Virus record (IMG/VR): IMGVR_UViG_3300047558_000077
Coordinates: 96,001 to 160,000 of that record
Source: a virus
Direction: 5' to 3' (one strand)
Length of the DNA stretch: 64,000 nucleotides
The position numbers and the translations under genes are program-made. A model generated the notes under the pieces. That model was not told where the DNA came from. It did no database searches and worked only from the letters and a program-made list of their open reading frames with translations. The first letter of the stretch is position 1, and each line of letters begins with the position of its first letter. Of this stretch, positions 9,930-64,000 are shown one piece after another.

Positions 9930-10166
9930 ATGATGGCAATTGTAATGTATTCCAAACAAGACTGTCCCTTCTGCGACAAGGCAAGGGAACTCCTGCGTTC
10001 ACAAGGAAAGTTTTTCATCGAATATAAACTTGACAGAGACTTTTCCAGAGAGACTTTAAAGGCACTATTTCCTACCGCAAAAACTTATCCCGTAATAACA
10101 CTTGACAGCCGCTATATTGGCGGCTATAATGAGTTATCAAAACTGCATGAGGAAGGGAAATTGTAA
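9930..10166 (+). CDS. Glutaredoxin
   Basis: CPFC active site; TYPVI; YIGGY. Confidence 0.9.
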   Translation: MMAIVMYSKQDCPFCDKARELLRSQGKFFIEYKLDRDFSRETLKALFPTAKTYPVITLDSRYIGGYNELSKLHEEGKL

Positions 10167-13423: not shown

Positions 13424-14284
13424 ATGTCTTACATGCTGATTGACCTCAACCAGGTTCTAATCTCTAATCTGATGCAACACCTAAAGTTTGTATCAAAGCA
13501 GCACGAAATGAGTGAAGACCTTATTCGTCATATGTGCATCAATACAATCCGATCTAACGTAAAGCAGTTTCGTTCCAAATATCAGAACGTTATTCTTTGC
13601 TGCGACTCGAAGCATTATTGGCGGCGTGATTACTTTGCGTTTTACAAGTCGCATCGTAAGCATGATCGTGAGGCATCTGGTCTTGATTGGGATATGATCT
13701 TCACTGTCCTAAATGGTCTTCGTGATGAGTTGCGTGATAACTTTCCGTATAAGACACTAAATGTGGAAGGCGCAGAAGCCGACGATGTTATTGCTGTGCT
13801 AACTGCTAGACTGGCTCCACATGCTCCTGTTCTTATTCTATCGTCAGATAAAGACTTTGGTCAGTTGCAGAAGTATCCAAACGTTACACAGTATTCACCT
13901 ATTCTAAAGCGGTTTATCAAGATTGATGATCCGAAGACTTTCGTTCGGGAGCATATCATCAAGGGTGATCGTGGCGATGGCATTCCAAACTTTCTTACAA
14001 ATGACAATGCTCTTGCTGTTGGCGAACGACAGAAGCCTATCAGTAGCAAGAAACTGACCGAATGGGTTCACAAAGATGCCTCCGAGTTTTGCACTACGGA
14101 TTGGATGCTTCGTTGTTATAAGCGCAATCAGACTCTTATTGATTTTGACTATATACCTAACGAGATCCAGTCTAAAATCGTTGATGCATTTGAAGAGACA
14201 AAACCCGCAGACAAACAGAAAATGCTGAACTACTTTATCAACAAAGGACTCAAGGCGATGATTGAGTCTATTCATGATTTTTGA
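13424..14284 (+). CDS. rnh: T4-type RNase H / 5'-3' exonuclease
   Basis: LIDLNQ, YWRR..YK..R, EADDVI, SSDKDF.QL, KGDRGDGIPN. Confidence 0.92.
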   Translation: MSYMLIDLNQVLISNLMQHLKFVSKQHEMSEDLIRHMCINTIRSNVKQFRSKYQNVILCCDSKHYWRRDYFAFYKSHRKHDREASGLDWDMIFTVLNGLRDELRDNFPYKTLNVEGAEADDVIAVLTARLAPHAPVLILSSDKDFGQLQKYPNVTQYSPILKRFIKIDDPKTFVREHIIKGDRGDGIPNFLTNDNALAVGERQKPISSKKLTEWVHKDASEFCTTDWMLRCYKRNQTLIDFDYIPNEIQSKIVDAFEETKPADKQKMLNYFINKGLKAMIESIHDF

Positions 14285-14291
14285 GGATAAC

Positions 14292-14729
14292 ATGACAAAT
14301 AAAAACATATATGAAGTTTTCAATGAGTTTAAAAATGCCAAGACAAAACAAGATCGCTTAGAGGTTCTAAGACGTAACAACAACTACGCTTTAAAAAATG
14401 TTTTGTTAGGTGCATTCAATAACAATATCAAATTCACTGTTAATAAAGTTCCTGACTACAAAAAGATAGATGTGCCGCCAGGCATGTCATACTCACACAT
14501 GACCGAGGCATTATCAAAGGTATACCTTTTTGTGGAGGGTAATGCAAAACGACCACAAGGTCTGACAGAAAAAAGAGCAACAGAACTTCTGATACAGTTG
14601 TTGGAATCTCTTGAACCAAATGAAGCAGAAGTTTTTGCCAACATGATTCAAAAAGATTTAAAAATACCATATCTAACAGTCAATCTAATCAATGAAGCAT
14701 TCCCTGGCCTGTTGCCGGATAAGGAGTAA
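14292..14729 (+). CDS. Conserved T4-like hypothetical protein (DUF6433-like)
   Basis: IYEVF...QLLESL.P.EAE...AFPGLL pattern; lies downstream of rnh. Confidence 0.55.
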   Translation: MTNKNIYEVFNEFKNAKTKQDRLEVLRRNNNYALKNVLLGAFNNNIKFTVNKVPDYKKIDVPPGMSYSHMTEALSKVYLFVEGNAKRPQGLTEKRATELLIQLLESLEPNEAEVFANMIQKDLKIPYLTVNLINEAFPGLLPDKE

Positions 14730-14744
14730 TCAAGGCTTAATACC

Positions 14745-14942
14745 ATGAAGAACAAATCACCAAGTTTGAAACACGATCCTTTATATGCCGAATTATTCGA
14801 AGAAGATAGAAAGTATGGTGGCAAACGTTTGGAACTTCCTCAAACCGACTTAAAAAAGAAACGTCCCATCCAAAATCTAAGGAAAGCATGGATGGAGCAC
14901 GAGGAAGACTTCGACGAGGTTGATGACTTTTACGAACATTGA
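14745..14942 (+). CDS. Hypothetical protein
   Basis: ORF track. Confidence 0.4.
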   Translation: MKNKSPSLKHDPLYAELFEEDRKYGGKRLELPQTDLKKKRPIQNLRKAWMEHEEDFDEVDDFYEH

Positions 14943-14960
14943 TTGTAAACAGGATAGTGC

Positions 14961-14988
14961 TTGACATTCCTTAAATTTCGAGTAGGAT
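14961..14988 (+). promoter_or_regulatory. Promoter for DUF262-HNH gene, overlapped by a long palindrome (14984-15029)
   Basis: TTGACA-16 bp-TAGGAT; upstream TGTAAACA box. Confidence 0.5.
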
Positions 14989-15048
14989 AGGTACCATGCT
15001 GATCAATAGTGACAGCAGGTATCTATCCTTAACAGAAGGAATTATAGA

Positions 15049-16419
15049 ATGTCTAATTGGAAATATGTCACCCGCACAGTTCAGGAATTTGTCAACGAGG
15101 CTCAACGTGATAACTGGAATGTTGATCCTGAGTGGCAGCGCCTTGACACAAATTTAAACCTTAATGCTAAAGGCTCGAAGCCCTCTAAGGCACAGAGCAT
15201 CATTGCTTCCATGTTTAATGGCCAAGATATTGGTGAAATTAAACTTTGTGACTATGAAGGTGTTAAGTCCTCAATTGATGGTGGTAATCGTAAGAGAGCC
15301 ATTCTAAATTTTTATAATAACAAGTTTGCCCTTCCCAAGGGTAGCAAGTATGCAGGCCTAAAGTATAAAGACCTTAGCGAAGATGCGAAAGAACTCTTCC
15401 TTAGCTATGTGATCCGTTTCATCGAATACGGTGAAATCACTACACAAGAAATTGGTGAAACTTTCCGTAACACCAACAATACAACTCCCGTCAATAAGCA
15501 GGAAATGCGTAACAGCGAAGGACAGAATCCAGTTGCGGTTCTCGTTCGTCGTACCACACGCAAGATTGATGAGGTTGGTAATATCCCTCACATCCTCTTT
15601 GATTGGAGAATTAACGCAAAGGGTGATGCGGAATATACTTATCTTACCTTCAATAACAAAGGCCTGCATCTGGATGAACAGACGGCTCGTTTGCTTTGCC
15701 GTGTTTTACAGGGTGAAAAGTCCATTGCCGTGAGCGATGACGACCTTGATAAAATGTATGCAGATTATGAGGCGTTTTTGACCGATGAGGAAAACCTCAA
15801 GAAGGCTAAGAAGAAGTTGTATGAAGTATTGGACTTTATTGTCAATATTGCCGATACAGCTAGAAAGTATAAGAATGGTCGTGGTCTTGCCCATAAGCAG
15901 TATGAAATGCTGGTTCGCCTGTATTTCTACCTTAAAGAACACCACAAGTCCTTTAAGGTTACCGATGCTAGTGAATTTTGGGTTGCGTTCACTACCGCTA
16001 TGGACTCGGTTCTTTCGTGTGACGATATCACATTTAAGGAGCGTAGCGGTAAGACTCGTGTCGTTGCAGAAGCCTTCGGTCAGTATCTTAAAAGCGACTT
16101 GAACGACCAGTGGAAGTATGATAAGTCCCTCGAACTCTTCCTGAATGAGTTTAATCTTGATAACTGCGGTCTAAAGTTGCTTGATCCTAAGCGTTGCTTT
16201 AGCCGTGATGAAATCGAGAGTGCCTTGATCAAGCAAGGTTACAAGGACTTTATTGATGGTAAGAAACTGACCATGAAAGATGCGGTTGGTGCCCATGTTA
16301 TTGCACATTCTAATGGTGGTAAGACGGAGACCGACAATCTAGTGGTCGTTTCTAAGGCTCATAACACGGCGATGGGTACCATGCCCGTTGATGTTTACAA
16401 AGCCTCTCTCGGGTATTGA
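15049..16419 (+). CDS. DUF262 (ParB/Srx-like) plus C-terminal HNH nuclease, GmrSD-like
   Basis: PEWQR, IDGGNR (DGQQR-like), F...NN.TP in N-terminus; AHVIAHSNGGKT..DNL...HN in C-terminus. Confidence 0.72.
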   Translation: MSNWKYVTRTVQEFVNEAQRDNWNVDPEWQRLDTNLNLNAKGSKPSKAQSIIASMFNGQDIGEIKLCDYEGVKSSIDGGNRKRAILNFYNNKFALPKGSKYAGLKYKDLSEDAKELFLSYVIRFIEYGEITTQEIGETFRNTNNTTPVNKQEMRNSEGQNPVAVLVRRTTRKIDEVGNIPHILFDWRINAKGDAEYTYLTFNNKGLHLDEQTARLLCRVLQGEKSIAVSDDDLDKMYADYEAFLTDEENLKKAKKKLYEVLDFIVNIADTARKYKNGRGLAHKQYEMLVRLYFYLKEHHKSFKVTDASEFWVAFTTAMDSVLSCDDITFKERSGKTRVVAEAFGQYLKSDLNDQWKYDKSLELFLNEFNLDNCGLKLLDPKRCFSRDEIESALIKQGYKDFIDGKKLTMKDAVGAHVIAHSNGGKTETDNLVVVSKAHNTAMGTMPVDVYKASLGY

Positions 16420-16438
16420 TCTAAGTCAAAGGTAACTT

Positions 16439-16543
16439 AGGTATGTCAACAGTCTACCTAAAACGTAGACTTAGGGTGCGTCACCCTGTCGCACCTGTTG
16501 ACATACCTTTTTTATTGACTCTTCCGTTCCGCCGTGCTATATT
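16439..16543 (+). promoter_or_regulatory. Composite early promoter module, copy 1
   Basis: 14-bp inverted repeat AGGTATGTCAACAG/CTGTTGACATACCT enclosing AGTCTAC-N7-GTAGACT and TGCGTCA-CCC-TGTCGCA; then TTGACT-17-TATATT; ATG at the expected start site (leaderless). Confidence 0.8.
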
Positions 16544-16549
16544 AAGTCC

Positions 16550-16870
16550 ATGATCACGAAACGCAAGAAGCGGTCCGACCGCAATCACATAATCTACAGC
16601 TTGACTGTAAAGGGTCAGGAATATATCGGTGTTACCCATGTCGAAAACGGCAAGGTTAACAAGTCTTTGGACCGTCGCTGGCGCAAGCATGTCGGTCGTG
16701 CGATGACCGAAGGTAAACTGTGGAAATTGTGCGTGGCTATTCGTAAGCATGGACCTGACAATTTCACTGTCGGCGTTCTGGAAATTGTGCGTGGTAAGTC
16801 TGCGGCTCATATACGTGAGCGGGAACTTATCCGTGAACGTAAGCCTAAACTTAACTCGGATGTGCGCTAA
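16550..16870 (+). CDS. Stand-alone GIY-YIG domain protein
   Basis: IIYSL...EYIGVT...RWRKH...AIRKHG..F...E..LI...LN. Confidence 0.7.
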   Translation: MITKRKKRSDRNHIIYSLTVKGQEYIGVTHVENGKVNKSLDRRWRKHVGRAMTEGKLWKLCVAIRKHGPDNFTVGVLEIVRGKSAAHIRERELIRERKPKLNSDVR

Positions 16871-17109
16871 TGTCTACAACCTTCAATGATCTTATTGGTA
16901 TGCATGACCTTGACCAGAAGGTGATTGTAAAAAAGGCCTTAGAGAGCCTTACGCCCAGAATGCAATTTGTCGTCATTCGTCGGTTTTTTCAGAACCAGAC
17001 CTTGTCGTCAATCGCTGAGGAAATTGGTCTATCTGAGGCTAGACTATATCAAATTGAACGCAAAGCCCTATGCAGCCTAAAGCGTGGCTTTAGGCGAAAC
17101 AAAATCTGA
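16870..17109 (+). CDS. Sigma-70 region 4-like HTH protein (no region 2)
   Basis: ALESLTPRMQFVV.RRF...TLSSIAEEIGLSEARLYQIERKAL..LK. Confidence 0.8.
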   Translation: MSTTFNDLIGMHDLDQKVIVKKALESLTPRMQFVVIRRFFQNQTLSSIAEEIGLSEARLYQIERKALCSLKRGFRRNKI

Positions 17110-17111
17110 GG

Positions 17112-17168
17112 TGCGACAACCTGTCGCATATGTTTACAGTTGACTCTTCCATTCCGCTGTGCTAATAT
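17112..17168 (+). promoter_or_regulatory. Composite early promoter module, copy 2 (short)
   Basis: TGCGACA-ACC-TGTCGCA, TGTTTACA, TTGACT-CTTCCATTCCGCTGTGC-TAATAT. Confidence 0.8.
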
Positions 17169-17195
17169 ATTCCCATAATGATGAAAGGAACAAAT

Positions 17196-17366
17196 ATGTC
17201 TAACGCTCGCTTCGCTCCCAAGAACCCCAACGGCAAAGATACTGCTAACATTTTTGCGCTTATTCGCTGGCACGAAAATGGTGGTAAAATCACCAAAGTG
17301 AAATCGTCCAAGCGTCCGAAGCGTGGTTATACTGTCGGTAAATCTGTCAAAACGGGAGATAAGTGA
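17196..17366 (+). CDS. Small basic early protein
   Basis: GAAAGGA RBS; NGGKITKV motif. Confidence 0.55.
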   Translation: MSNARFAPKNPNGKDTANIFALIRWHENGGKITKVKSSKRPKRGYTVGKSVKTGDK

Positions 17367-17566
17367 TGGAAGTTTTCGTCCTGATGAGCCATATCCTCTA
17401 TGAATGCGACGAGTTGCTGGGCGTCTACCACAATGAATCGGACGCCGAGTTTGCCCGTGATGAATATAAACGAGAAAACGAAGATCATATGTTCGATCAA
17501 TTTAGCATTGAACGCCGTGTAATCGGTGCTGCGGCTCGGGCAGATTGGGAGACAGATAATGTCTGA
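17363..17566 (+). CDS. Small acidic early protein
   Basis: VFVL...ELLGVY...A pattern. Confidence 0.55.
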   Translation: MMEVFVLMSHILYECDELLGVYHNESDAEFARDEYKRENEDHMFDQFSIERRVIGAAARADWETDNV

Positions 17567-17626
17567 TATCGTTCTGTTTATTGTGCTATTCGGTATGCCT
17601 ATATCCCTGGGCCTTATTGCTATTCT

Positions 17627-17763
17627 CTCGGAGGACTAATATGACAGAACAGGAAATCACCAAGCACAATAACCGCAATTCTGAACATCAGCTTATTTGG
17701 CATGGTGTTTGCGTTTGGATCTATTCTGAATATCTGAATGGATAACTCGGAGGACTAATATGA
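17627..17763 (+). repeat. 18-bp direct repeat of RBS/start cassette flanking a 34-aa ORF
   Basis: CTCGGAGGACTAATATGA at 17627-17644 and 17746-17763. Confidence 0.75.
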
Positions 17764-17945
17764 TTGATCGTGATGCCTTAATAGCCGCAATATATGATCG
17801 TTATCTTGTTATAGGTAACTATTGGTGGTGTATTGATGATGTGCCCGACTTTTTAGATGATGTTATGTCCGATGGTCACTATGATAATATATCTTTTGAT
17901 CAGATAGTTGTCATGGTTTCCGATTATATGTATGATTGCGACTAA
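17760..17945 (+). CDS. Small acidic early protein
   Basis: ORF track; GGAGG RBS. Confidence 0.5.
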   Translation: MIDRDALIAAIYDRYLVIGNYWWCIDDVPDFLDDVMSDGHYDNISFDQIVVMVSDYMYDCD

Positions 17946-18059
17946 GGAGAATGAAATGATCGATAATTCTAAAACGGTTCAGTTTGTGGCACTAACGGTA
18001 ATGTCACTAGCATTGGTGTTCGGTGTTTATCTGATTTATCTTCTGGATGGAGGCATCTA

Positions 18060-18251
18060 ATGGAGTTTACTCTCTTCAAGGCTCTAATGATTATTATGTT
18101 TATTCTCACGGCTGTTGGCATGGCATATAATGCTAAAATCATGAATGATTGTATTGATAGTGGCAGTCCAAAAAGCCAGGCGTGTTTCAAGTATAATGTA
18201 ATCAATAACAACATGCATAATCTCAACCTGAACGTAGATAATGGAGAATGA
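18060..18251 (+). CDS. Small membrane/exported protein
   Basis: Hydrophobic N-terminus; GGAGG RBS; Cys pair. Confidence 0.5.
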   Translation: MEFTLFKALMIIMFILTAVGMAYNAKIMNDCIDSGSPKSQACFKYNVINNNMHNLNLNVDNGE

Positions 18252-18405
18252 AAATGGCTAATGTGAAGACCTATAACCTTTCTATTCATCTGAAAGGTAA
18301 TCGCACTCTCACTTTTCGTGGCATTTCTCGTGTAGCGGTTGAACGATATCGCAAGCACTATGAAATCCAAATGGACTATATTTCCGCATCGGTGGAGAAT
18401 CGTTA

Positions 18406-19629
18406 ATGTCTTATCAGTTCGTGCAAGGTCGTGGTGCGCCGCTCAAGATGTGGTGCGAAGGTGTTGAGGTCGAGGACGATGCTCGTACCCAGTTAGAGAA
18501 CATAGCGTCCTTGCCGTTCGTGTATAAGCATGTGGCGGTGATGCCGGATGTTCACTTGGGTAAGGGTGCTACGGTTGGTTCGGTTATCGCTACCAAGGGT
18601 GCGGTAGTTCCGGCGGCTGTTGGTGTTGATATCGGTTGCGGTATGATGGCAGTTCGGTTGTCTCTAAAGGCAAACGACTTGCCGGACAATCTTGCTTCGC
18701 TTCGTTCTCATATCGAGTCCGTAGTGCCGCATGGTCGCACGGACAACGGCGGTAAGAACGACAAGGGAACGTGGCTTGACCGCATTCCGAACTCGGCTTC
18801 AAATGCTTGGTTGTCTTTGTGTAGCCGTTATGATGCTATAGTGGCAAAGCACCCGAAGATTGCGTCTCATAAGACTTTTGAGTTTATGGGCACTCTCGGC
18901 ACGGGCAACCACTTTATCGAGTTGTGTCTGGACGAGGACGATTATGTGTGGGTAATGCTACACTCTGGTTCTCGTGGTGTAGGTAACAAGATCGGTCAGT
19001 ATTTCATCGAGGCTGCTCGCAAGGAGATGGAGCGATATCATATCCTGCCGTATCTGCCGGATAAGGACTTGTCCTATTTGGTAGAGCATACCACGCTATT
19101 CGATGATTATGTTGAAGCAGTATCCTGGGCACAGGAGTTTGCTGCTCTCAACCGTCAGGTGATGATGGATGCGGTGCTTGATGTTCTGCGTCAGCGTTTG
19201 CCGTCGTTTGTCGTGTCTGATGAAAAGGCTGTGAACTGCCACCACAACTATATCTCCAAGGAAAACCACTTTGGAGAAAATGTGTTTGTGACCCGTAAGG
19301 GTGCGGTTCGTGCCCGTGAAGGCGATCTTGGTATCATACCGGGTTCTATGGGCACGGGTTCGTTTATCGTTCGTGGTCTTGGTAATCAGGAGTCGTTTTG
19401 TTCGTGTTCTCATGGTGCTGGTCGTCGTATGTCCCGCAATGCGGCTCGTAAGGCTATCACGCTAGATGATCATATCAAGGCGACCGAGGGTATTGAGTGC
19501 CGTAAGGACGTAGATGTGATTGACGAATCGCCGGCTGCTTACAAGGATATCGGTGCGGTCATGGCTGCACAGGATGACCTTGTTGAGATTGTCCACCGAT
19601 TGCGTCAGGTTCTAAACGTAAAGGGATAA
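18406..19629 (+). CDS. rtcB: RtcB RNA ligase (2',3'-cyclic phosphate/5'-OH)
   Basis: MPDVHLGKG, GVDIGCGM, GTLGTGNHFIE, LHSGSRG, HHNY, RKGA, IPGSMG, SHGAGR, DESPAAYK. Confidence 0.96.
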   Translation: MSYQFVQGRGAPLKMWCEGVEVEDDARTQLENIASLPFVYKHVAVMPDVHLGKGATVGSVIATKGAVVPAAVGVDIGCGMMAVRLSLKANDLPDNLASLRSHIESVVPHGRTDNGGKNDKGTWLDRIPNSASNAWLSLCSRYDAIVAKHPKIASHKTFEFMGTLGTGNHFIELCLDEDDYVWVMLHSGSRGVGNKIGQYFIEAARKEMERYHILPYLPDKDLSYLVEHTTLFDDYVEAVSWAQEFAALNRQVMMDAVLDVLRQRLPSFVVSDEKAVNCHHNYISKENHFGENVFVTRKGAVRAREGDLGIIPGSMGTGSFIVRGLGNQESFCSCSHGAGRRMSRNAARKAITLDDHIKATEGIECRKDVDVIDESPAAYKDIGAVMAAQDDLVEIVHRLRQVLNVKG

Positions 19630-19631
19630 AA

Positions 19632-19748
19632 ATGAAACGCAAGAATGTAAACCCAGTGGCTAAGGCGTTACGTCTTGGTGTATGTAAACCTAAGGTGATT
19701 GTAGACAGGAAAACTGTATACAATCGCAAAAGGCTACCAAAACTATAG
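19632..19748 (+). CDS. 38-aa basic peptide, ArfA-like (not in ORF track)
   Basis: MKRKNVNPVAKALRLGVCKPKVIVDRKTVYNRKRLPKL*; starts 3 nt after rtcB stop. Confidence 0.5.
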   Translation: MKRKNVNPVAKALRLGVCKPKVIVDRKTVYNRKRLPKL

Positions 19749-19907
19749 ACTATAGTGACTTGGTGTTCTAATATCTCAAAAATACCCCTTCAAGGGCAAC
19801 CATGCCCTGTCCGAAAAATCGATAGGAAGCACCAGGAGACTTTTCACGGTCTTCTGGTGCTATAGTCTCTTCCAGACCTCAAAACTCTCCTGGCGTCTCC
19901 TGGAGAT

Positions 19908-20007
19908 TGTAAACAGTCTACCAACTCTATAGACTTTAGGTGCGACATCCTGTCGCACCTGTTGACATACGATTTCTCTTGCTTCTTCCGTTCCGTTGTG
20001 CTACTAT
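19908..20007 (+). promoter_or_regulatory. Composite early promoter module, copy 3
   Basis: TGTAAACA, AGTCTA-N9-TAGACT, AGGTGCGACA-TCC-TGTCGCACCT, TGTTGACA, TTGCTT-CTTCCGTTCCGTTGTGC-TACTAT. Confidence 0.8.
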
Positions 20008-20033
20008 ATCCGCATAATGTTGAAAGGAACAAA

Positions 20034-20675
20034 ATGATCAATCTCTCCAAGGCCTCTAAAATGCCTGCTAAGTCCTGGTCGCTTCAAGCGGGTTCGACCT
20101 GTCCGGGTTCTATCGATCCCGTTACCAAGCAGCCGCTTCCTGTTTGTGCGGGTTGTTATGCAAAAGATGGCATGTATAATATGCCAAACGTCAAGTCGGT
20201 TCGTGACGCTAATCGAGAAGATTGGAAGCGTGCCGAATGGGTCGATGAAATGGTTGCTTTGCTTAAAAAGCAAAAGTATTTCCGTTGGTTCGACTCGGGA
20301 GACGTTTATCATCCGGCTCTTGCTTTCAAAATCTTTCTGGTTATGCAAAAGACTCCGCATGTGAAGCATTGGCTTCCTACCAAGTCTTATAACATTCCGA
20401 AGATCCGTGCTATTCTTGATCAGATGAAAATGCTTCCGAATGCATCTGTTCGATATTCGTCTCCGTCTATTACGGGTGAATTTAATAGCGAACATGGCTC
20501 CACTGTTATCGCATATGCCGATGATGAAACGACCGCTACGGTCTGTGGTGCTTATTCTCGGAATGGCAAGTGTGGCGATTGCCGTGCTTGCTGGGATACG
20601 AATGTTAAGGTTGTCGCTTATCCCGCACATGGTCGTCGTATGATGTCCAAAGTCCGTAAAATGAAAGCAGCCTAA
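20034..20675 (+). CDS. Gp88-like Cys-rich phage protein (possible Fe-S / radical-SAM-like)
   Basis: SKMP..SWSL.A..TCPG...VCAGCYA; FRWFDSGD; HWLPT; CGDCRACW; GAAAGGA RBS. Confidence 0.7.
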   Translation: MINLSKASKMPAKSWSLQAGSTCPGSIDPVTKQPLPVCAGCYAKDGMYNMPNVKSVRDANREDWKRAEWVDEMVALLKKQKYFRWFDSGDVYHPALAFKIFLVMQKTPHVKHWLPTKSYNIPKIRAILDQMKMLPNASVRYSSPSITGEFNSEHGSTVIAYADDETTATVCGAYSRNGKCGDCRACWDTNVKVVAYPAHGRRMMSKVRKMKAA

Positions 20676-20686
20676 GGAGGATTAAT

Positions 20687-20893
20687 ATGTCACGCATATC
20701 TGATCTGATTATTCAAGCAGAGAACCTCGTTATTGAGGCTATGGGCGTTTCGGGTATTATGACCGACCGTGATGTTCTCGAATATGTAAATGACCGTATG
20801 CCTATTTACGTCGATATGCATTTTGTCGAGAGTGTCCTTGACAAGTATTTCGGCGATGACTGGTATGGCGGCGATATTCGCTCTTATAATTGA
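20687..20893 (+). CDS. Hypothetical protein
   Basis: AAGGAGG RBS; ORF track. Confidence 0.55.
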   Translation: MSRISDLIIQAENLVIEAMGVSGIMTDRDVLEYVNDRMPIYVDMHFVESVLDKYFGDDWYGGDIRSYN

Positions 20894-20902
20894 GGTGATG
20901 AA

Positions 20903-21145
20903 ATGTCGTGTAGATGGCATTCATTCTATGAAAATGGACGCCTAAGGATTTATCTTTCCCATGAATCGCTCGAAGACCTGGAAAATAGTCTTTGTCAAGG
21001 TTTCTTTGTAGCATACGGCACTTCGCCGAATGGCGGTCCGTCAGATTGTATCTGGTATGTGCCTAACACCATAATGCAACAGGAAGGAATTTTCGCTTAT
21101 GAAAACCCGAGAATATACCAACAAGATTATCGAAATGGTCGATGA
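20903..21145 (+). CDS. Hypothetical protein
   Basis: GAGGTG RBS; ORF track. Confidence 0.4.
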   Translation: MSCRWHSFYENGRLRIYLSHESLEDLENSLCQGFFVAYGTSPNGGPSDCIWYVPNTIMQQEGIFAYENPRIYQQDYRNGR

Positions 21146-21317
21146 AGGTCTAATCGATCGGGATATTCTTATTCGTGATCTTCTAAACTATATGTCCGAG
21201 TCCGATGTTGAAAACTTTTATGACCAGTATTATGGTTATGAGGACGAGGACGATGAATTGGATGATGGTCAGCCGTCGGAAATGGACGAATGGCACGACT
21301 ATGACCCAGGATGCTGA
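21099..21317 (+). CDS. Acidic hypothetical protein
   Basis: R.YTNKIIEMVDEG...YMSESDV; C-terminal DGQPSE..EWHDYDP.C motif. Confidence 0.6.
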   Translation: MKTREYTNKIIEMVDEGLIDRDILIRDLLNYMSESDVENFYDQYYGYEDEDDELDDGQPSEMDEWHDYDPGC

Positions 21318-21331
21318 CTGTAAACGAGAGA

Positions 21332-21432
21332 ATGTCAACAGTCTACCGACTTTATAGAATATGGATGCGTCACCCTGTCGCACCTGTTGACATACCTTTT
21401 CGCTTGCAATCTGTCCTTACTTGTGTTATCCT
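21332..21432 (+). promoter_or_regulatory. Composite early promoter module, copy 4
   Basis: ATGTCAACAG...CTGTTGACAT inverted repeat enclosing GTCTA-N9-TAGA and TGCGTCA-CCC-TGTCGCA; TTGCAA-17-TATCCT. Confidence 0.78.
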
Positions 21433-21462
21433 TAGTCATCAAATCGAAACAGGAGTTTTAAT

Positions 21463-22005
21463 ATGCCCCGTACCGCTCAATCTAATGGTATCAAACCCTA
21501 CCTGCGTGCCCTTGCCGTTATCAAGCTCGGTGTTCCTGTGACCCCGACCGAGATTAACGAGCATGTTGGCACCGGTGACTATGCTGCAAAGTATATCTCT
21601 TTTCTTCGCAATCGCAACGGCTTCGAGTTTACCATTCAGAAAGATGGTCGCAAGGTCGTTTCTTATACCTTGATCAAGGAACCGGCTGATGCCGAGGCCT
21701 TGCGTAATCTAATGCCAAAGGCCGCTAAGTCTAAGGCGCCTAAGGTTGCTAAGACTTCTGCTCCCAAGGTCGTGGTTGCTCCTGCTCCTAAGGCTGCTAA
21801 GACTAAAGCGCCTAAGAAGGTTGCGGCTAAGAAGTCTGTTGCCGATATCAAGGCAGCTAATCTTGCTAAACTCAAGGCAGTTGGTCAGCGTTTCAAGGCT
21901 GATCAGGTTCAGGTTCTGACCGAAGCGCCTGCGTCCACTTCGTTTAGCATTGACAACGACTGGGACTCGGTCGAAGGTCTTGACCTCAAGAACCTCATTG
22001 GATAA
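21463..22005 (+). CDS. Putative DNA-binding early protein with Ala/Lys/Pro-rich (histone H1-like) linker
   Basis: wHTH-like N-terminus; repeated KAPK/KAAK; AGGAG RBS. Confidence 0.55.
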   Translation: MPRTAQSNGIKPYLRALAVIKLGVPVTPTEINEHVGTGDYAAKYISFLRNRNGFEFTIQKDGRKVVSYTLIKEPADAEALRNLMPKAAKSKAPKVAKTSAPKVVVAPAPKAAKTKAPKKVAAKKSVADIKAANLAKLKAVGQRFKADQVQVLTEAPASTSFSIDNDWDSVEGLDLKNLIG

Positions 22006-22016
22006 GGAGTGCTAAT

Positions 22017-22271
22017 ATGGCATATGTTCGTATTGATATGGACGACATTGAAACAGAGGATTTGGTCGAGGAACTGGAGGATCGTGGTTATACTATGATT
22101 GAGCCTGGTGGTGAACATGAAAATGTAGAAACAATCAAGCGCATGGAAGATGATATCTATAATCTCTATCGTGATTATGTTCAATGGGCAGGTAATAAGT
22201 CGTCTTGTAGTTCCTTCGAGAGTGCCATAAAACGCTTCTTTGAGAAGCATACTAATAAGATTGTATCCTAA
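22017..22271 (+). CDS. Hypothetical protein
   Basis: D..TEDLVEELEDRGY motif; AAGGAG RBS. Confidence 0.55.
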   Translation: MAYVRIDMDDIETEDLVEELEDRGYTMIEPGGEHENVETIKRMEDDIYNLYRDYVQWAGNKSSCSSFESAIKRFFEKHTNKIVS

Positions 22272-22281
22272 GGAGAAACAA

Positions 22282-22644
22282 ATGGCCCGTCTCAAAATCA
22301 AATATAAAAATACTCTGGTTTTGCGTGGGTCAAATGTTTATGTGCCTGATCATAGCGTATATGTCGGTCGTGTCGTAAAGCCACGGCCGTCTTGGCTTTC
22401 CAAAGACGAATTTCTTTTCACCACTGGTGATATTGACTCGCCTGTCCGTATTCTTGATAAGAAAAACATTATTGAGGCGTGGGTGTCACATAAGAATGTT
22501 GATGATGGTGTGACACTTGTTCCTGGTGAAAAGCGACCGTATGTTGTGACTCGTGGTCCATTCGGTCGTTATTCGTGTAACTGTACCGCATATGGCTATC
22601 GGCAGCGGTGTTCTCATATTGATGGAGTGAAACATGGGTCTTGA
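22282..22644 (+). CDS. SWIM-type zinc finger protein
   Basis: YSCNCTAYGYRQRCSHI (CxC...CxH). Confidence 0.65.
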   Translation: MARLKIKYKNTLVLRGSNVYVPDHSVYVGRVVKPRPSWLSKDEFLFTTGDIDSPVRILDKKNIIEAWVSHKNVDDGVTLVPGEKRPYVVTRGPFGRYSCNCTAYGYRQRCSHIDGVKHGS

Positions 22645-23065
22645 TATGAATCTTTATGGTGAAAAGATTATTTGTGGTTCGGAGGCGGCCCCGGAGGCAG
22701 CCCTCGAAGATGGATTTCCTCTTTCATCTAAAATTCTTGACTTGGGATATTGGCGTAAACATCCCAATCTTCATGGTTACATCGTTGATACTTTCGCTGA
22801 TGGTAAAGACGAATGCCAGCGTATTTATTTGGACGAGAATGAACTCCAAAAGATCATAGAAGCATTAGAAAACGATGCTATCTATGATGAACCTGTTACG
22901 GGTTTCTTCTTCGGCAAATCTTACTTTCCTGGTGAGAAAGATGAATATAGTTCTTATGAAGAACAGAAGTCCCGTGATATAGATATCTTCACAAAGGCAC
23001 TCAATTGGATTCAGAATAATCCTTCTAAAGAGTGGCGAAATCTGTATTATCAGGCATCGTGGTGA
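22634..23065 (+). CDS. Conserved phage hypothetical protein
   Basis: MGLDM.LY...YWRKHPNLHGY...GFFFG...YYQASW. Confidence 0.65.
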   Translation: MGLDMNLYGEKIICGSEAAPEAALEDGFPLSSKILDLGYWRKHPNLHGYIVDTFADGKDECQRIYLDENELQKIIEALENDAIYDEPVTGFFFGKSYFPGEKDEYSSYEEQKSRDIDIFTKALNWIQNNPSKEWRNLYYQASW

Positions 23066-23194
23066 TAATATGTGGGACATTCACTGGATATGGAACCCTC
23101 GACATTGGGCGGTTCATAAAGTAACAAGATTCAATGGCGGCCGCCCCTATGAAAGTTATAGATTCGGTCCACTGTTTATCAGGAGATTTTGGAA

Positions 23195-23608
23195 ATGAAA
23201 ATACACAATGAAAGTTCCTGGCTAAACTGTGATGGCATCGCCATGGCAGAAAAGATGTATAATGCCAAGTATGTGTTCGAGTCCTGCTTAAAGACGAAAG
23301 ATGGTGGTTGGTGTAATATGCCAGTCGCTATCTTCTATACTGAAAAGGCCCACCCAGAAGGTTCAAACTATTTTGGATTGTATCGCACAGACTATGGTGA
23401 TCTAATGATCACAGACGGTATCTCTGCTACCGAACCATTTGATGCTTTACAGGTAGGTGAAGATATTATCTATTCTCGTTATCGTCACGATTGTCGTGAG
23501 TTTAATGGTGCGATGGTTGATGGTGGTCGAGATTACTTCAAGACCAATATGAAGGGCACTCCTGTCAAACTACAGGTTGTTGGTGATCATTTGGAGGTGG
23601 TGAAATGA
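23195..23608 (+). CDS. Conserved phage hypothetical protein
   Basis: YSRYRHD...VDGGRDY motif. Confidence 0.55.
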   Translation: MKIHNESSWLNCDGIAMAEKMYNAKYVFESCLKTKDGGWCNMPVAIFYTEKAHPEGSNYFGLYRTDYGDLMITDGISATEPFDALQVGEDIIYSRYRHDCREFNGAMVDGGRDYFKTNMKGTPVKLQVVGDHLEVVK

Positions 23609-23823
23609 AGATTAAACATTCAGTTGAATTAGACTTCGATTCTGTTAGTGAATTGATTCGTAAAAGTCTAATGTATGATTATGAAATCAATAGCAAACCT
23701 GATAAATTTGATTGTTCAGATGATGTTATTGAACCGGATCATGAGTTTCTAAGATGTTTAGAAGTTGTGATTCAGTATTATTGTAGTTGTTCTCAGTTCG
23801 AAGAATGGAAAAAGAATAGATAA
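23605..23823 (+). CDS. Hypothetical protein
   Basis: ORF track; ATGA coupling. Confidence 0.45.
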   Translation: MKIKHSVELDFDSVSELIRKSLMYDYEINSKPDKFDCSDDVIEPDHEFLRCLEVVIQYYCSCSQFEEWKKNR

Positions 23824-23906
23824 CCGATTATCATGGAGCTCCTGAATCATCGCTAATTATTTGGCTTCATGATGCCCATGATAGAAACCCTTTAAGGAGA
23901 AAGTAA

Positions 23907-24050
23907 ATGAAACTGGCATGGCTTTGCTATCATCTAATAGAGAACACTGGAAAACTGGAATACGATAAACCTGAAATTCTGTTCTATGAACCAGACCGTT
24001 ATCTTTATGATAAGGTTGTTCCAATCGTATATGCGGAGATTGTAGAATGA
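23907..24050 (+). CDS. 47-aa hypothetical protein (not in ORF track)
   Basis: AAGGAG RBS; ATGA-coupled to the ligase gene. Confidence 0.45.
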   Translation: MKLAWLCYHLIENTGKLEYDKPEILFYEPDRYLYDKVVPIVYAEIVE

Positions 24051-32514: not shown

Positions 32515-32543
32515 TTGACAGGAGCTTCGGCTCCTGTTATAAT
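32515..32543 (+). promoter_or_regulatory. Consensus promoter for gene 32 with a UUCG hairpin in its spacer
   Basis: TTGACA-17 bp-TATAAT; ACAGGAGC-TTCG-GCTCCTGT. Confidence 0.8.
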
Positions 32544-59516: not shown

Positions 59517-60713
59517 ATGTTCTTAGCACCTATTGTAAGACCGACTAGAATTGTAAATATCGATTCATCAACAAACAATGTTGATCTATATGCACAGGCA
59601 GGCAATCCAGCTTATCCTGTCAATGTCCTTTGCTTTGTTAATGCGGCTGTTACTGCAACGTCACCTTCGACACCAGCTTTCAGAACTGGTGGTTCATGGA
59701 TGGGTGGCTCATGGATCTATATCGAAAATAACTCCACTATCACTGGACGTATTGGAAATACAGGTTCTCAAGGAGCTACAGGATCAACAGGCGCCACTGG
59801 AGCACATGGTCATCAAGGCTCTGAAGGTGCATATGGCGCAGGTGGTCACGGTGGTCATGGTGCTCATTCTTCCGCCGGCAGCACTTCTGGTGCTGGTCAC
59901 GGCGGCGGCGGCGGTCCAGGAGCTACTGGAGGAACAGGAAATCAAGGTGGCACAGGAGCAACAGGTGGGCCTGGAGGAACAGGCGCAACTGGAGGCACTG
60001 GCGGTATTTCGTTTCAAGCAGATACAGCTACACTTGCCGCTCTTATCGTAAATAACAAAAACGCAATCATCGGCGGCACAGGCGGTCCTGGTGGTGCGGG
60101 TGGTATCGGTGGTCCTGGTGGTCCTGGCGGACCCGGAGGCGCAGGTGGCCATGGCGGCTGGGGCGGCGGAGGCGGCGGTGGCGGTGGCGGTGCAGCGCAC
60201 GGTTACGGACAACATCAACATTGCGTTCCTTACGGTTGTCACGCACACGGCGGTCACGCTAACGGTGGTGGCGGCGGCGGTGGCGGTGGCGCTGGTCATG
60301 CAGGACATGGTGCTCCCGGCGGTGCAGTTCACTCAACGACTCATGGTCATGGCGGCGGTCATGGTGGAAATCATTATGGTGGCGGCGGTGCTCCTGGTGC
60401 AGGACATTACGACGGCAATCAACATCATGCTCACGTTCACGGTGGACATGGTGGACATGGTGGTCACTGGAATGCTGCGGGCGCTCATGGCGGTGCTGGT
60501 CACGGCGGCGGCAATCATGGCGGCCACGGCGGTGCACCAGGTGGCGGTGCTGGTGGTCATGGTGCTCAAGGTGCTACGGGTGCAACCGGGCCAACAGGAG
60601 CCCAAGGCGTTACAGGACCTACAGGTGCTCAAGGCGCTCAAGGAAATGCTATCGTAGGCAACTCAAACATTAGATACATTAATAACGGACACACATCCGG
60701 ACCAATTTCATAA
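59517..60713 (+). CDS. Gly/His-rich fibre-tip adhesin-like protein with collagen-like segments
   Basis: Gly-X-Y runs, polyglycine tracts and more than 30 His; follows the tail fibre gene. Confidence 0.55.
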   Translation: MFLAPIVRPTRIVNIDSSTNNVDLYAQAGNPAYPVNVLCFVNAAVTATSPSTPAFRTGGSWMGGSWIYIENNSTITGRIGNTGSQGATGSTGATGAHGHQGSEGAYGAGGHGGHGAHSSAGSTSGAGHGGGGGPGATGGTGNQGGTGATGGPGGTGATGGTGGISFQADTATLAALIVNNKNAIIGGTGGPGGAGGIGGPGGPGGPGGAGGHGGWGGGGGGGGGGAAHGYGQHQHCVPYGCHAHGGHANGGGGGGGGGAGHAGHGAPGGAVHSTTHGHGGGHGGNHYGGGGAPGAGHYDGNQHHAHVHGGHGGHGGHWNAAGAHGGAGHGGGNHGGHGGAPGGGAGGHGAQGATGATGPTGAQGVTGPTGAQGAQGNAIVGNSNIRYINNGHTSGPIS

Positions 60714-62294: not shown

Positions 62295-64000
62295 ATGTCA
62301 ATCAAGATTACAACTGGCGGCGATAACAAAGTCAACGTAGTAACCACACCAAAGAATAGAGTCCAGGTCACCAATGGTGGTTCTGGATCAATGGCGGGTG
62401 TAGCTCTCGCTACCGATTTACCACCAATTTTCATTCATGCTAACTCAGCTTTCAATACAGCTAATGCTGCATATGGTTCAGTAAACTCTAACTGGACGGT
62501 GATGAATGTTGTCTATCAGACGACTAATGCTAACTACACTATGGGCAATGCAGCTTATATTGCTCTCAACTCAGCATATAACACCGTCAACGCTGTATAT
62601 GCATCCGCTAATTCTAACTGGACAGTCCAGAACCTAGTCTATGCCACGGTCAATGCCAACTACGTTATGGCTAACGCTGGCTATGTAACACTAAACGCAG
62701 CATATGATACTATCAATGCGGTCTATGTTTCAAGTAACTCTAATTGGGTAGTCCAGAACGTTGTTTACGCAACGGTAAATGCCAATTACATAATGTCAAA
62801 TGCGTCGTTTGTTGCTCTCAATTCAGCATATGACACTGTAAATGCCGTATATGCTTCAAGCAACTCTAACTGGGTTGTGCAAAATGCGGTCTATGATCTG
62901 GCCAATACAATCTATGCTTCCGCCAATTCTAACTGGGAAGTCCAGAACCTAGTCTATGCTACAGTAAATGCCGCTTACGATTCTTCTAATTCGAACTGGG
63001 CGGTTCAGAACGCTGTTTATGACCTAGCAAACACAATTTATGCTTCGGCCAATTCAAACTGGGAAGTTCAAAATCTAGTTTACGCTACGGTAAACTCCAG
63101 CTATGTTATGGGTAACGCATCTTACGTTACCTTGAATGCTGCTTACGATACCGTCAATTCTGTTTATGATGTATCAAATAGCAACTATACTATGGCAAAT
63201 GCCAGTTATGTTGCGCTAAACGCAGCATATGATACCGTAAACGCAGTTTTTGCTTCGTCCAATTCTAATTGGGTCATCCAAAACGTAATCTATCACACTG
63301 TAAACGCCGACTACACAATGTCGAATGCCGCTTACAGAACGTTGAACGTGGCATTTGACACAGCTAATGCATCGTATGACTCTGCAAACTCAAATTGGAC
63401 AGTTCAAAACACACTATACGAAACTACAAATGCTTCGTATGTTATGGGCAATGCTGCATATCACACAATCAATGCTGCATATGCTTCTATCAATTCAAAC
63501 TGGACCGTTCAAAACGCTCTTTATAAAGTAGCCAACACTGCATATGATTCCGTCAACTCTAATTGGACGGTACAAAACCTTGTATATGCTACAGTAAATT
63601 CTAGCTATGTTATGGGTAATGCCGCTTATGTGGCATTGAACTCTGCTTACGATACTGTAAACGCTGTATATGCTTCTTCAAATTCTAACTGGGTTGTCCA
63701 AAACCTAGTTTATGCGACCGTTAATGCTGCTTATACACTATCAAACGCAGCATACGCTAATGCTAACTCACTAGCAATCGGTGCCAACAACTGGACAAAC
63801 ACTGTAGGTATGTCAGCAAACTCATATGCTGGCTTCATGGCAAACTCTGCCAATATCTACACAGAAGCAACTTATGTAAAGCTATCTTCTCCATCACTAC
63901 AGCTAATCACTAGCGATCTAGGAATTGCTGGTAATCTATTCGTTGTCGGCGAAGTAACTTACGCTAACACAAGACAGCTACAGGTTGGTGATAACATTAT
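62295..64000 (+). CDS. Long Asn-heptad repeat fibre protein (3' truncated; absent from ORF track)
   Basis: Open frame from ATG 62295 (MSIKITTGG...) to the window end; N-x-x-[YWF]-x-x-x repeats such as NSNWTVQ NLVYATV NAAYDTV. Confidence 0.75.
   Translation, partial: MSIKITTGGDNKVNVVTTPKNRVQVTNGGSGSMAGVALATDLPPIFIHANSAFNTANAAYGSVNSNWTVMNVVYQTTNANYTMGNAAYIALNSAYNTVNAVYASANSNWTVQNLVYATVNANYVMANAGYVTLNAAYDTINAVYVSSNSNWVVQNVVYATVNANYIMSNASFVALNSAYDTVNAVYASSNSNWVVQNAVYDLANTIYASANSNWEVQNLVYATVNAAYDSSNSNWAVQNAVYDLANTIYASANSNWEVQNLVYATVNSSYVMGNASYVTLNAAYDTVNSVYDVSNSNYTMANASYVALNAAYDTVNAVFASSNSNWVIQNVIYHTVNADYTMSNAAYRTLNVAFDTANASYDSANSNWTVQNTLYETTNASYVMGNAAYHTINAAYASINSNWTVQNALYKVANTAYDSVNSNWTVQNLVYATVNSSYVMGNAAYVALNSAYDTVNAVYASSNSNWVVQNLVYATVNAAYTLSNAAYANANSLAIGANNWTNTVGMSANSYAGFMANSANIYTEATYVKLSSPSLQLITSDLGIAGNLFVVGEVTYANTRQLQVGDNI

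What the first reader, a model, noticed from the sequence alone, without database searches (positions are those of the whole stretch)
16439..21432. Four copies of a multi-operator early promoter module carrying a RegA/PrrA/RegR-type box
Seen at about 16439, 17112, 19908 and 21332, in fixed order: TGTnnACA, AGTCTA-N9-TAGACT, TGCG(A/T)CA-N3-TGTCGCA, TGTnnACA, then a sigma70 promoter. Copy 2 lacks the first two elements. Three copies share the spacer CTTCCRTTCCGYYGTGC. In copy 1 the outer boxes form a perfect 14-bp inverted repeat around two inner palindromes, so it could also fold as a branched hairpin. Known: GCG(G/A)C-N5-GTCGC is the binding consensus of the alphaproteobacterial redox regulator RegA/PrrA/RegR/ActR. 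Inference: the phage's early genes are wired to host redox state plus two further unidentified regulators, an enhancer-like architecture unlike T4 early or MotA promoters. The copies could also serve as recombination points for shuffling early gene cassettes.
Basis: partly seen in the sequence, partly recalled or inferred. Interest (0 to 1): 0.8.

Follow-up and report, generated by a model that had tools for sequence, protein, structure and literature searches.

The report
Portable early promoters with host-type operator
A T4-like phage of methane-eating bacteria reuses a roughly 100-base promoter cassette whose conserved 17-base palindrome looks like a docking site for a host redox regulator. 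Phage early genes may therefore be tied to a host signalling system, but no binding has been shown.

Summary
All four copies exist at the stated coordinates, in the stated element order, far above chance. The family is larger: 8 palindromes in this 172-kb genome and 38 distinct modules across related uncultured phages.

The architecture matches PeSLs, the composite stem-loop and early-promoter cassettes of T4-type phages. Modules begin just after the upstream stop codon. They carry a host-RpoD-type promoter plus ribosome-binding site. Homology blocks between relatives start at the palindrome.

The 17-bp palindrome TGCGWCA-N3-TGWCGCA behaves like a protein operator rather than an RNA stem:
- None of its 7 arm pairs shows a compensatory change.
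- 12 of 38 copies carry a mid-stem mismatch.
- The centre is free (16 different triplets).
- The distance to the -35 is 20-21 nt (31 copies) or 10-11 nt (3 copies).

The palindrome equals two inverted PrrA/RegR-type half-sites. The phage carries pmoC 90-93% identical to Methylocystis. Methylocystis encodes ActR/PrrA/RegA and has the same palindrome at conserved promoter-proximal sites.

RegA binding, redox control and early timing are untested. A close relative with the same pmoC has no boxes. I class this as a new variant of a known kind.

Another first-stage note on this genome (e1-5728699) had already reported the phased boxes.

The parts
16439..16452 (+). Copy 1: left arm of the 14-bp outer inverted repeat, containing the TGTCAACA box
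   Evidence: Sequence read. Pairs with 16495-16508 in the fold.
16451..16471 (+). Copy 1: AGTCTA-N9-TAGACT element
   Evidence: Exact match. Across 18 copies the right arm TAGACT is kept in 16, and changes in the left arm are not compensated.
16477..16493 (+). Copy 1: 17-bp palindrome in the TGCGTCA variant, the operator-like box
   Evidence: Lies 21 nt before the -35.
16495..16508 (+). Copy 1: right arm of the outer repeat, containing the TGTTGACA box. A T-run follows at 16508-16513.
16515..16543 (+). Copy 1: promoter TTGACT-N17-TATATT. The downstream GIY-YIG gene starts at 16550.
17112..17128 (+). Copy 2: perfect 17-bp palindrome, starting 3 nt after the stop codon of the upstream ORF
   Evidence: Lies 11 nt before the -35.
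17131..17168 (+). Copy 2: TGTTTACA box, then promoter TTGACT-N17-TAATAT. The likely start codon is at 17196.
19908..19935 (+). Copy 3: TGTAAACA box, then AGTCTA-N9-TAGACT
19941..19957 (+). Copy 3: perfect 17-bp palindrome with centre TCC, the commonest variant in the phages and also in host genomes
19958..20007 (+). Copy 3: right box CCTGTTGACATAC, a T-rich tract, then the weak promoter TTGCTT-N17-TACTAT. The GP88-family gene starts at 20034.
21333..21360 (+). Copy 4: TGTCAACA box, then AGTCTA-N9-TAGAAT (1 mismatch)
21366..21382 (+). Copy 4: 17-bp palindrome in the TGCGTCA variant
21383..21432 (+). Copy 4: right box, a T-rich tract, then the weak promoter TTGCAA-N17-TATCCT. The gene starts at 21463.
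19731..19751 (+). Remnant half-module: an AGGCTA-N9-TAGACT element with no palindrome after it. It is homologous to the upstream part of the relatives' GP88 module.
   Evidence: BLAST blocks covering 19628-19752.
14944..14988 (+). Related promoter: a TGTAAACA box 9 nt upstream of TTGACA-N16-TAGGAT, with no palindrome

Best explanation
The four copies belong to a family of portable early-promoter cassettes of PeSL type. They sit in a T4-like, pmoC-carrying phage whose host is most likely a Methylocystis-type alphaproteobacterial methanotroph.

Each cassette starts just after the stop codon of the gene before it. It ends with a host-RpoD-type promoter, a conserved leader and a ribosome-binding site.

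The conserved 17-bp palindrome TGCGWCA-N3-TGWCGCA is a DNA operator for a dimeric protein. It sits one or two helical turns upstream of the -35, centred near -55 or -65, where a bound protein could contact RNA polymerase and activate transcription.

The protein is most likely a host regulator. The best candidate is the ActR/RegA/PrrA-family response regulator.

The same cassettes serve as crossover points that shuffle gene cassettes between related phages. In copies where a T-run follows the structure, they may also end the upstream transcript.

Shown here: the repeat family, its fixed spacing, conservation of sequence without structure, host look-alike sites, and breakpoints at the modules.

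Inferred: protein binding (about 0.6), a host factor (about 0.5), RegA-family identity (about 0.35), activation, and any redox meaning.
For: **Family size.** There are 8 palindromes in the genome and 38 distinct modules in relatives.

**Sequence kept, structure not.**
- None of the 7 arm pairs shows a two-sided change.
- Arm pair 5 is T.T or A.A in 12 of 38 copies.
- There are 16 different centre triplets.
- The flanking bases are not paired.

**Variants fit the PrrA half-site.** The half-sites fit GWCRMA in 35 of 38 right halves and 38 of 38 left halves. The recurrent variants fall on the degenerate W and R positions (motif from PMC5506826).

**Spacing.** The gap to the -35 is 21 nt in 28 copies, 20 in 3, and 10-11 in 3. 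The intervening sequences are unrelated in kind: T-run plus A-run, two A-runs, or box plus T-run.

**Second element.** It sits a fixed 5 nt before the palindrome in 17 of 18 copies.

**Host.**
- pmoC is 90-93% identical to Methylocystis.
- M. parvus has ActR/PrrA/RegA (316 bits, cut-off 250) and ActS.
- The phage has neither.

**Host look-alike sites.**
- GCGACA-N3-TGTCGC occurs at 66 sites against 15 control sites in 31 Methylocystis genomes.
- At least 13 fetched host loci have it 135-187 nt upstream of the same 55-aa membrane-protein gene (two more lie about 375-394 nt away), with the arms kept and the centre varying.
- Three boxes precede a pmoCAB paralog in two genomes.

**Cassette behaviour.**
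- 11 of 56 homology-block left ends fall within 16-nt windows at the palindrome starts, which make up 0.5% of the region. 19 of 56 fall inside modules, which make up 3.7%.
- The architecture matches the PeSL description (PMC4122927).

**Promoter.** It fits the RpoD consensus of a type II methanotroph: -10 TATAHT with a 17-nt spacer (PMC12403871).
Against: - No binding or expression data exist.
- RegA/PrrA/RegR motifs are degenerate, and ChIP-seq found no strong PrrA consensus (PMC4263372).
- The literal left half of the PrrA motif has G where the phage has A or T in every copy.
- A close relative (98% complete, pmoC 92% identical) has no boxes, so they are not needed for infecting this host group.
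- An RNA reading stays viable. The palindrome folds at a median of -10.8 kcal/mol. In 31 of 38 copies the right box pairs upstream, and 26 of those are followed by a T-rich tail. Four copies have a T-run directly after the palindrome.
- The copies are related by descent and recombination, so the counts are not independent.
- No box lies next to the host actSR genes.
- In the host sites I read, the phase relative to the promoter was 7 or 18 nt, not 10 or 21.
Confidence: 0.5

Rival explanations
1. Plain PeSL. The palindromes act only as RNA stem-loops, as terminators or stabilisers of the upstream transcript, placed in front of a constitutive early promoter. Their sequence conservation comes from repeated recombination between copies (concerted evolution), not from a binding protein.
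For: - Modules begin right after stop codons.
- Four genome copies have the palindrome directly followed by a T-run.
- At genome 75440-75472 a different 10-bp stem uses the right half-site and is followed by a T-run.
- Compound folds are stable: copy 1 has z = -7.6 and copy 3 has z = -5.6.
- 26 of 38 copies have a T-rich tail after an outer stem.
- PeSL stems are known to have lineage-specific consensus sequences (PMC4122927).
Against: - There are no compensatory changes, and 12 of 38 copies have a mid-stem mismatch.
- One copy (in L073) has A-runs instead of a T-run at the same 20-nt spacing.
- Many tails are weak, of the ACGATTTC type.
- A simple terminator scan does not call these sites.
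- A terminator would not need the strict 10- or 21-nt distance to the -35.
- The same palindrome recurs at host promoter regions that have no T-run.
Confidence: 0.25
2. The boxes are operators for phage-encoded proteins, for example a repressor that shuts early genes off at the early-to-middle switch. A further candidate is the small sigma70-region-4-only protein encoded at 16870-17109, acting on the TTGACA-like outer boxes.
For: - The boxes are lineage-specific: present in G000, G001, G004 and G005, absent in G002 and G003.
- The outer boxes contain -35-like hexamers.
- A free-standing region-4 protein is encoded between copies 1 and 2 (Pfam PF04545, E = 1e-11).
Against: - The region-4 gene is missing at the same place in a relative that keeps the modules (L016).
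- The palindrome also occurs at conserved host sites, which points to a host protein.
- No phage DNA-binding candidate was found that co-varies with the boxes. This was not searched exhaustively.
Confidence: 0.12
3. The modules are mainly recombination or mobility sites, meaning targets for homing endonucleases or site-specific exchange, and their promoter activity is incidental.
For: - Breakpoints are concentrated at the palindrome.
- A half-module remnant lies at 19731-19751.
- Copy 1 is flanked by an ORF whose C-terminal end reads like an HNH endonuclease motif (by eye; Pfam gave no hit) and by a GIY-YIG endonuclease gene (Pfam).
Against: - The genome has no resolvase or integrase.
- Only one of the four window copies heads an endonuclease gene.
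- The promoter, leader and ribosome-binding site are all conserved (family D7).
- Homologous recombination between repeats suffices to explain the breakpoints (PMC4122927).
Confidence: 0.08

Closest known systems
PeSLs, the promoter-early stem-loop cassettes of T4-type phages (Arbiol 2010, PMC2839356; Comeau 2014, PMC4122927)
   Same: - The order is the same: stem-loop, AT-rich tract, sigma70-like -35/-10 with a 17-nt spacer, Shine-Dalgarno, start codon.
- There are many similar copies per genome, lying between small variable early genes.
- Copies sit at insertions, deletions and replacements between close relatives.
- Degraded half-copies occur.
   Different: - The stem is a specific 17-bp palindrome, kept at the sequence level across phages and held at a fixed helical phase from the -35.
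- Two more fixed-position motifs lie upstream.
- Base pairing is not maintained.
- Mini-circle formation was not tested.
Host-regulator boxes in T4-like cyanophage promoters: NtcA sites (PMC3037559) and PhoB Pho boxes bound in EMSA (PMC10976474)
   Same: A lytic T4-like phage carries binding sites for a host global or two-component regulator upstream of several of its own genes. The phage also carries a host-derived metabolic gene.
   Different: - The candidate regulator, ActR/RegA/PrrA, is a redox sensor of Alphaproteobacteria.
- The sites are part of a repeated mobile cassette.
- No binding or expression data exist yet.
RegR/PrrA/RegA binding sites of Alphaproteobacteria (motifs quoted in PMC5506826; examples in PMC4064962 Table 1)
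   Same: - An inverted GCG...CGC repeat with a 5-nt gap between hexamers.
- Half-sites TGCGACA and TGCGTCA.
- A location upstream of RpoD promoters.
   Different: The phage box is a symmetric, near-perfect version made of two GWCRMA halves. Natural sites are degenerate and variably spaced. Membership cannot be decided without protein binding.
Intrinsic terminators
   Same: A GC-rich hairpin lies right after a stop codon, with a T-run in some copies.
   Different: There is no covariation, internal mismatches are frequent, and the T-run is often displaced or weak.

Membership tests
PeSL cassette | Stem-loop immediately upstream of an early promoter | tested here: met
   Folds. Caveat: pairing is not conserved.
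PeSL cassette | Sigma70-like -35 and -10 with a spacer of about 17 nt, followed by a Shine-Dalgarno and a start codon | tested here: met
   The leader and ribosome-binding site are conserved between copies 2 and 3 (family D7).
PeSL cassette | Several similar copies per genome, clustered among small variable genes | tested here: met
   Eight copies in three clusters, at genome 62.7, 75.4-75.7 and 112-117 kb.
PeSL cassette | Association with indels and replacements between close relatives | tested here: met
   Mosaic synteny. 19 of 56 block left ends fall inside modules, which cover 3.7% of the region.
PeSL cassette | Excision of mini-circles between tandem copies | not testable with these tools
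   Needs PCR on phage DNA.
RegA/PrrA/RegR binding site | Match to the published motifs | tested here: inconclusive
   - 11 of 12 positions match PrrA YSCGGC(5)GWCRMA.
- All positions match RegR GNGRCRTTNNGNCGC except the central TT.
- Position 5 of the left half never matches.
- The motifs themselves are degenerate (PMC5506826, PMC4263372).
RegA/PrrA/RegR binding site | Host encodes the regulator | tested here: met
   NF033791 at 316 bits and NF033792 at 391 bits in M. parvus. The host itself is inferred from pmoC identity.
RegA/PrrA/RegR binding site | Position and phase compatible with activation | tested here: met
   The gap to the -35 is 20-21 or 10-11 nt in 34 of 38 copies.
RegA/PrrA/RegR binding site | Bound by the phosphorylated regulator, with expression responding to redox state | not testable with these tools
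   Needs EMSA or footprinting, and reporters.
Intrinsic terminator | Stable stem followed at once by a U-run | tested here: inconclusive
   4 of 38 copies have it directly after the palindrome, and 26 of 38 have it after a compound structure. The consensus scan does not call these sites.
Intrinsic terminator | Stem maintained by compensatory change | tested here: not met
   No two-sided change in any pair, and 12 of 38 copies have a mismatch at pair 5.
Known RNA family (Rfam) | Match to a covariance model | tested here: not met
   No relevant hit in 14000-24000 at E <= 1.

The most novel reading that the evidence does not exclude
The phage cassette is a copy or mimic of a host methane-monooxygenase promoter together with its regulator site.

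In two Methylocystis genomes a pmoCAB paralog is preceded by three such boxes. The proximal box lies at the same distance from the -10 as in the phage. The two promoters share two identical short blocks, of 11 and 10 nt, spaced 32 nt apart in both.

If this is real, phage early genes would be co-regulated with a host pMMO operon through one host factor, possibly ActR/RegA. Infection would then be tied to the oxygen or methane state of the cell.
Probability: 0.15. Interest if true: 0.8.

Novelty: new variant of a known kind. Interest (0 to 1): 0.6.

Why it matters
pmoC phages are thought to influence methane oxidation in lakes, yet nothing is known about how their genes are controlled. The paper that described them does not mention promoters or regulators (PMC7674155).

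A short, highly conserved and easily synthesised 17-bp box occurs both in phage early promoters and at conserved host sites, including upstream of a pMMO operon. This gives a direct experimental handle: one gel shift with host ActR, or a DNA pull-down, would identify the factor.

The finding would also extend the PeSL idea. The 'stem-loop' of such cassettes may in some lineages be a regulator-binding site rather than a terminator.

Tried and rejected
**Searches that found nothing**
- Megablast of 15000-23000 against deposited phages: no match.
- Exact 20-mer from the module in viral contigs: no match.
- Rfam: only a sub-threshold snoRNA hit.
- Consensus terminator scan: does not call the modules.
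- Phage-encoded ActR, resolvase and integrase: none found.

**Host checks that did not link up**
- The region around the host actSR genes has no box with fewer than 3 mismatches.
- The 80 host pmoC loci closest to the phage gene have no box or half-site within 500 nt upstream.
- The pattern of half-site plus a fixed distance to GTGCTA is not enriched in 31 host genomes: 2 hits against 15 control hits.
- The second element, AGTCTA-N9-TAGACT, is not enriched in host genomes (44 against 109 control), although one conserved site exists at the sulfate-binding-protein promoter.
- A small HTH protein encoded near the host pmoCAB paralog has no phage homologue and looks transposase-like.

**Other**
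- Matching of the central bases between the outer boxes: 12 matched against 6 unmatched by my reading. This is not distinguishable from chance.
- Papers with the original RegR and PrrA site definitions were not held, so the motifs are quoted second-hand.

Full report
**1. Observation**

- The palindrome TGCGWCA-N3-TGTCGCA occurs only at 16477, 17112, 19941 and 21366 in the window. That is 8 strand-matches against 0.76 expected, and no shuffle reaches this.
- The spacer motif occurs exactly three times.
- AGTCTA-N9-TAGACT is exact in copies 1 and 3 and one mismatch off in copy 4.
- Repeat finding groups the copies as a 96-nt family at 71-80% identity. A second family links the promoter, leader and ribosome-binding site of copies 1-3.
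- Copy 1 has a perfect 14-bp outer inverted repeat and folds as a branched hairpin at -36.6 kcal/mol, z = -7.6.

**2. Setting**

The window is bases 96001-160000 of a 172,364-bp virus record, 40.8% G+C, rated complete.
- The phage is T4-like. Its RNase H is about 50% identical to those of Methylophilales phage Melnitz and of cyanomyoviruses.
- No deposited phage is close at the DNA level.
- The genes behind the modules are small accessory genes:
  - a GIY-YIG endonuclease plus a sigma70-region-4-only ORF;
  - a 62-aa ORF leading a string of small ORFs and RtcB;
  - a GP88-family protein;
  - a 180-aa unknown.
- The genome carries pmoC. It is 90-93% identical to pmoC of Methylocystis and other Beijerinckiaceae.
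- High PmoC identity is one of the criteria the pmoC-phage paper used to assign hosts (PMC7674155).

**3. The family is larger**

Four more palindromes lie outside the window, at genome 62718, 75457, 75553 and 75660.
- The copy at 62718 sits directly after pmoC.
- The other three sit in the tRNA region.
- Each is followed by a T-run and then a strong TTGAC-N16/17-TATAAT-type promoter.

Searches with neighbouring proteins and with the pattern itself recovered 38 distinct modules from about ten related uncultured phage contigs.

**4. Closest known architecture**

PeSLs of T4-type phages are composite cassettes. Their order is stem-loop, AT-rich tract, sigma70-like promoter, Shine-Dalgarno, start codon. 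They are repeated among variable early genes, lie at indels between close relatives, and have lineage-specific stem sequences and degraded half-copies (PMC4122927).

All of these features are met here:
- Modules start within a few bases of the upstream stop codon.
- Synteny with relatives is mosaic. In L016, for example, the 456-aa ORF, the region-4 ORF and RtcB are all absent between retained modules.
- 11 of 56 long homology blocks begin within 16-nt windows at the palindrome starts, which make up 0.5% of the region. 19 of 56 begin inside modules, which make up 3.7%.
- A half-module remnant lies at 19731-19751.

**5. Stem or operator?**

I tested whether the palindromes are maintained as base pairs. 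Over the 38 copies:
- None of the seven arm pairs shows a two-sided change.
- The fifth pair is T.T in 10 copies and A.A in 2.
- The three central bases take 16 different values.
- The flanking G/C bases are often unpaired.

In the second element, the right arm TAGACT is kept in 16 of 18 copies. The left arm changes without compensation in 7 and 4 copies at two positions.

Spacing, by contrast, is rigid:
- 9 nt between the arms of the second element.
- 5 nt to the palindrome in 17 of 18 copies.
- 21 nt from the palindrome to the -35 in 28 copies, 20 nt in 3, and 10-11 nt in 3.

The 20-21-nt gap is filled by three unrelated kinds of sequence: right box plus T-tract, T-run plus A-run, and two A-runs. 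Small internal shifts are compensated so that the total stays constant.

Sequence and helical phase are thus conserved while pairing is not. This is what a protein-binding site that works with RNA polymerase looks like.

**6. The RNA reading is not dead**

- The palindrome alone folds at a median of -10.8 kcal/mol.
- Four copies have a T-run directly after it.
- In 31 of 38 copies the right box pairs with upstream sequence, and 26 of those are followed by at least 5 T in 8 nt.
- At genome 75440-75472 a different 10-bp stem uses the right half-site and is followed by a T-run.

Some copies therefore probably also terminate the upstream transcript. I give this a dual, secondary role.

**7. Which protein?**

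The motifs quoted in PMC5506826 are:
- PrrA: YSCGGC(5)GWCRMA
- RegR: GNGRCRTTNNGNCGC
- RegA: SSGNVRDNHYSNCSS

The phage box is two inverted GWCRMA halves with the correct 5-nt gap, an 11 of 12 match to the PrrA motif.
- The right half fits in 35 of 38 copies, and the mirrored left half fits in 38 of 38.
- The two recurrent variants (T/A and G/A) fall on the W and R positions.
- RegR-shifted B. japonicum promoters list half-sites beginning TGCGTCA and TGCGACA, which are the two phage variants (PMC4064962 Table 1).
- Methylocystis parvus encodes an ActR/PrrA/RegA equivalog and its kinase. The phage does not.

Against this:
- These motifs are degenerate.
- PrrA ChIP-seq gave no strong consensus (PMC4263372).
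- The G at position 5 of the left PrrA half is never present in the phage.

**8. Host look-alikes**

The core GCGACA-N3-TGTCGC occurs at 66 sites in 31 Methylocystis genomes, against 15 for the reversed control.
- At least 13 fetched host loci have it 135-187 nt upstream of an orthologous 55-aa membrane-protein gene, and two more lie about 375-394 nt away. The arms are kept and the centre varies.
- Two genomes have it upstream of a 27-aa peptide gene.
- Two genomes have three boxes upstream of a pmoCAB paralog whose PmoC is 69% identical to the phage's.

In that pmoCAB promoter:
- The proximal box lies at the same distance from the -10 as in the phage.
- Two short blocks are identical.
- Local alignment gives z = 5.2 for one pairing.
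- This was noticed after the fact, and the arrangement is not general in hosts.

These sites argue that a host protein recognises the palindrome. They do not say which one, and no box lies by actSR.

**9. Limits**

- G002, a 98%-complete relative with a 92%-identical pmoC and an 86%-identical GP88 gene, has no boxes at all. Its GP88 promoter is a plain -35/-10. The boxes are an accessory feature.
- Only 8 of the roughly 30 strong sigma70-like promoters in this genome carry them.
- The outer TGTnnACA boxes vary in number and orientation among relatives. They contain -35-like hexamers and may be leftovers of promoter-promoter recombination, as described for degraded PeSLs (PMC4122927).
- Early timing, activation and redox control are all inference.

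**10. Verdict**

The multi-box, phased, RegA/PrrA-like reading survives the tests I could run and gains support from the host data.
- The architecture is a variant of PeSL cassettes.
- The principle that a T4-like phage carries host-regulator boxes is known from NtcA and PhoB in cyanophages (PMC3037559, PMC10976474).
- I rate it a new variant of a known kind, interest 0.6.

Noticed in passing
window 16870-17109 (+): A 79-aa ORF that consists only of sigma-70 region 4 (PF04545, E = 1e-11). It overlaps the stop codon of the GIY-YIG gene. It is absent at the same place in relative L016. It could be the DNA-binding part of a split homing endonuclease, or a -35-binding decoy.
   Followed up: partly
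L001:1388-1710 (genome 75440-75760, outside the window): Three tandem units of promoter, about 45 nt, then palindrome plus T-run. They would give transcripts of about 55 nt resembling the leader of the next gene. They are either empty cassettes left by deletions or small RNAs.
   Followed up: no
L158:1501-1517, L159:1501-1517 and other Methylocystis loci (L179-L201): A conserved host palindrome GCGACA-N3-TGTCGC lies 135-187 nt upstream of an orthologous 55-aa glycine-rich membrane-protein gene in at least 13 fetched host loci. The centre triplet varies.
   Followed up: partly
L209:4730-5302 and L208:4603-5175: Three such boxes lie upstream of a pmoCAB paralog in two Methylocystis genomes. The proximal box and the region before the -10 share two identical short blocks (11 and 10 nt) with phage copies 1 and 2, at the same spacing.
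   Followed up: partly
L017-L035, about 110-30 nt before the GP88 start (locus positions about 2890-2970): In a more distant phage clade the GP88 promoter is embedded in an inverted repeat that flanks the -35 and changes in a compensatory way between contigs (CACGGG/CCCGTG against CACAGG/CCTGTG). A second outer repeat is also present.
   Followed up: no
window 10102-10130 and 32515-32543: Two perfect TTGACA-N17-TATAAT promoters whose 17-nt spacer is itself a GC-rich hairpin.
   Followed up: no
L214:1501-1521, L218:1501-1521, L216:1501-1521: A host palindrome AGTCTAT-N7-ATAGACT overlaps the -10 of the sulfate-binding-protein gene in several Methylocystis genomes. A related site precedes an Rrf2-family regulator gene. 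It resembles the second phage element but is not enriched overall.
   Followed up: partly
L051:1823-1858 and 2863-2879: A distant phage (GP88 33% identical) also has GCGACA-N3-TGTCGC-like boxes next to a TATAAT promoter, two of them adjacent.
   Followed up: no
window 59830-60580 and 62470-63760: Glycine-rich GGN repeats and a 126-nt periodic repeat array inside large ORFs near the window end, probably fibre-like structural proteins.
   Followed up: no
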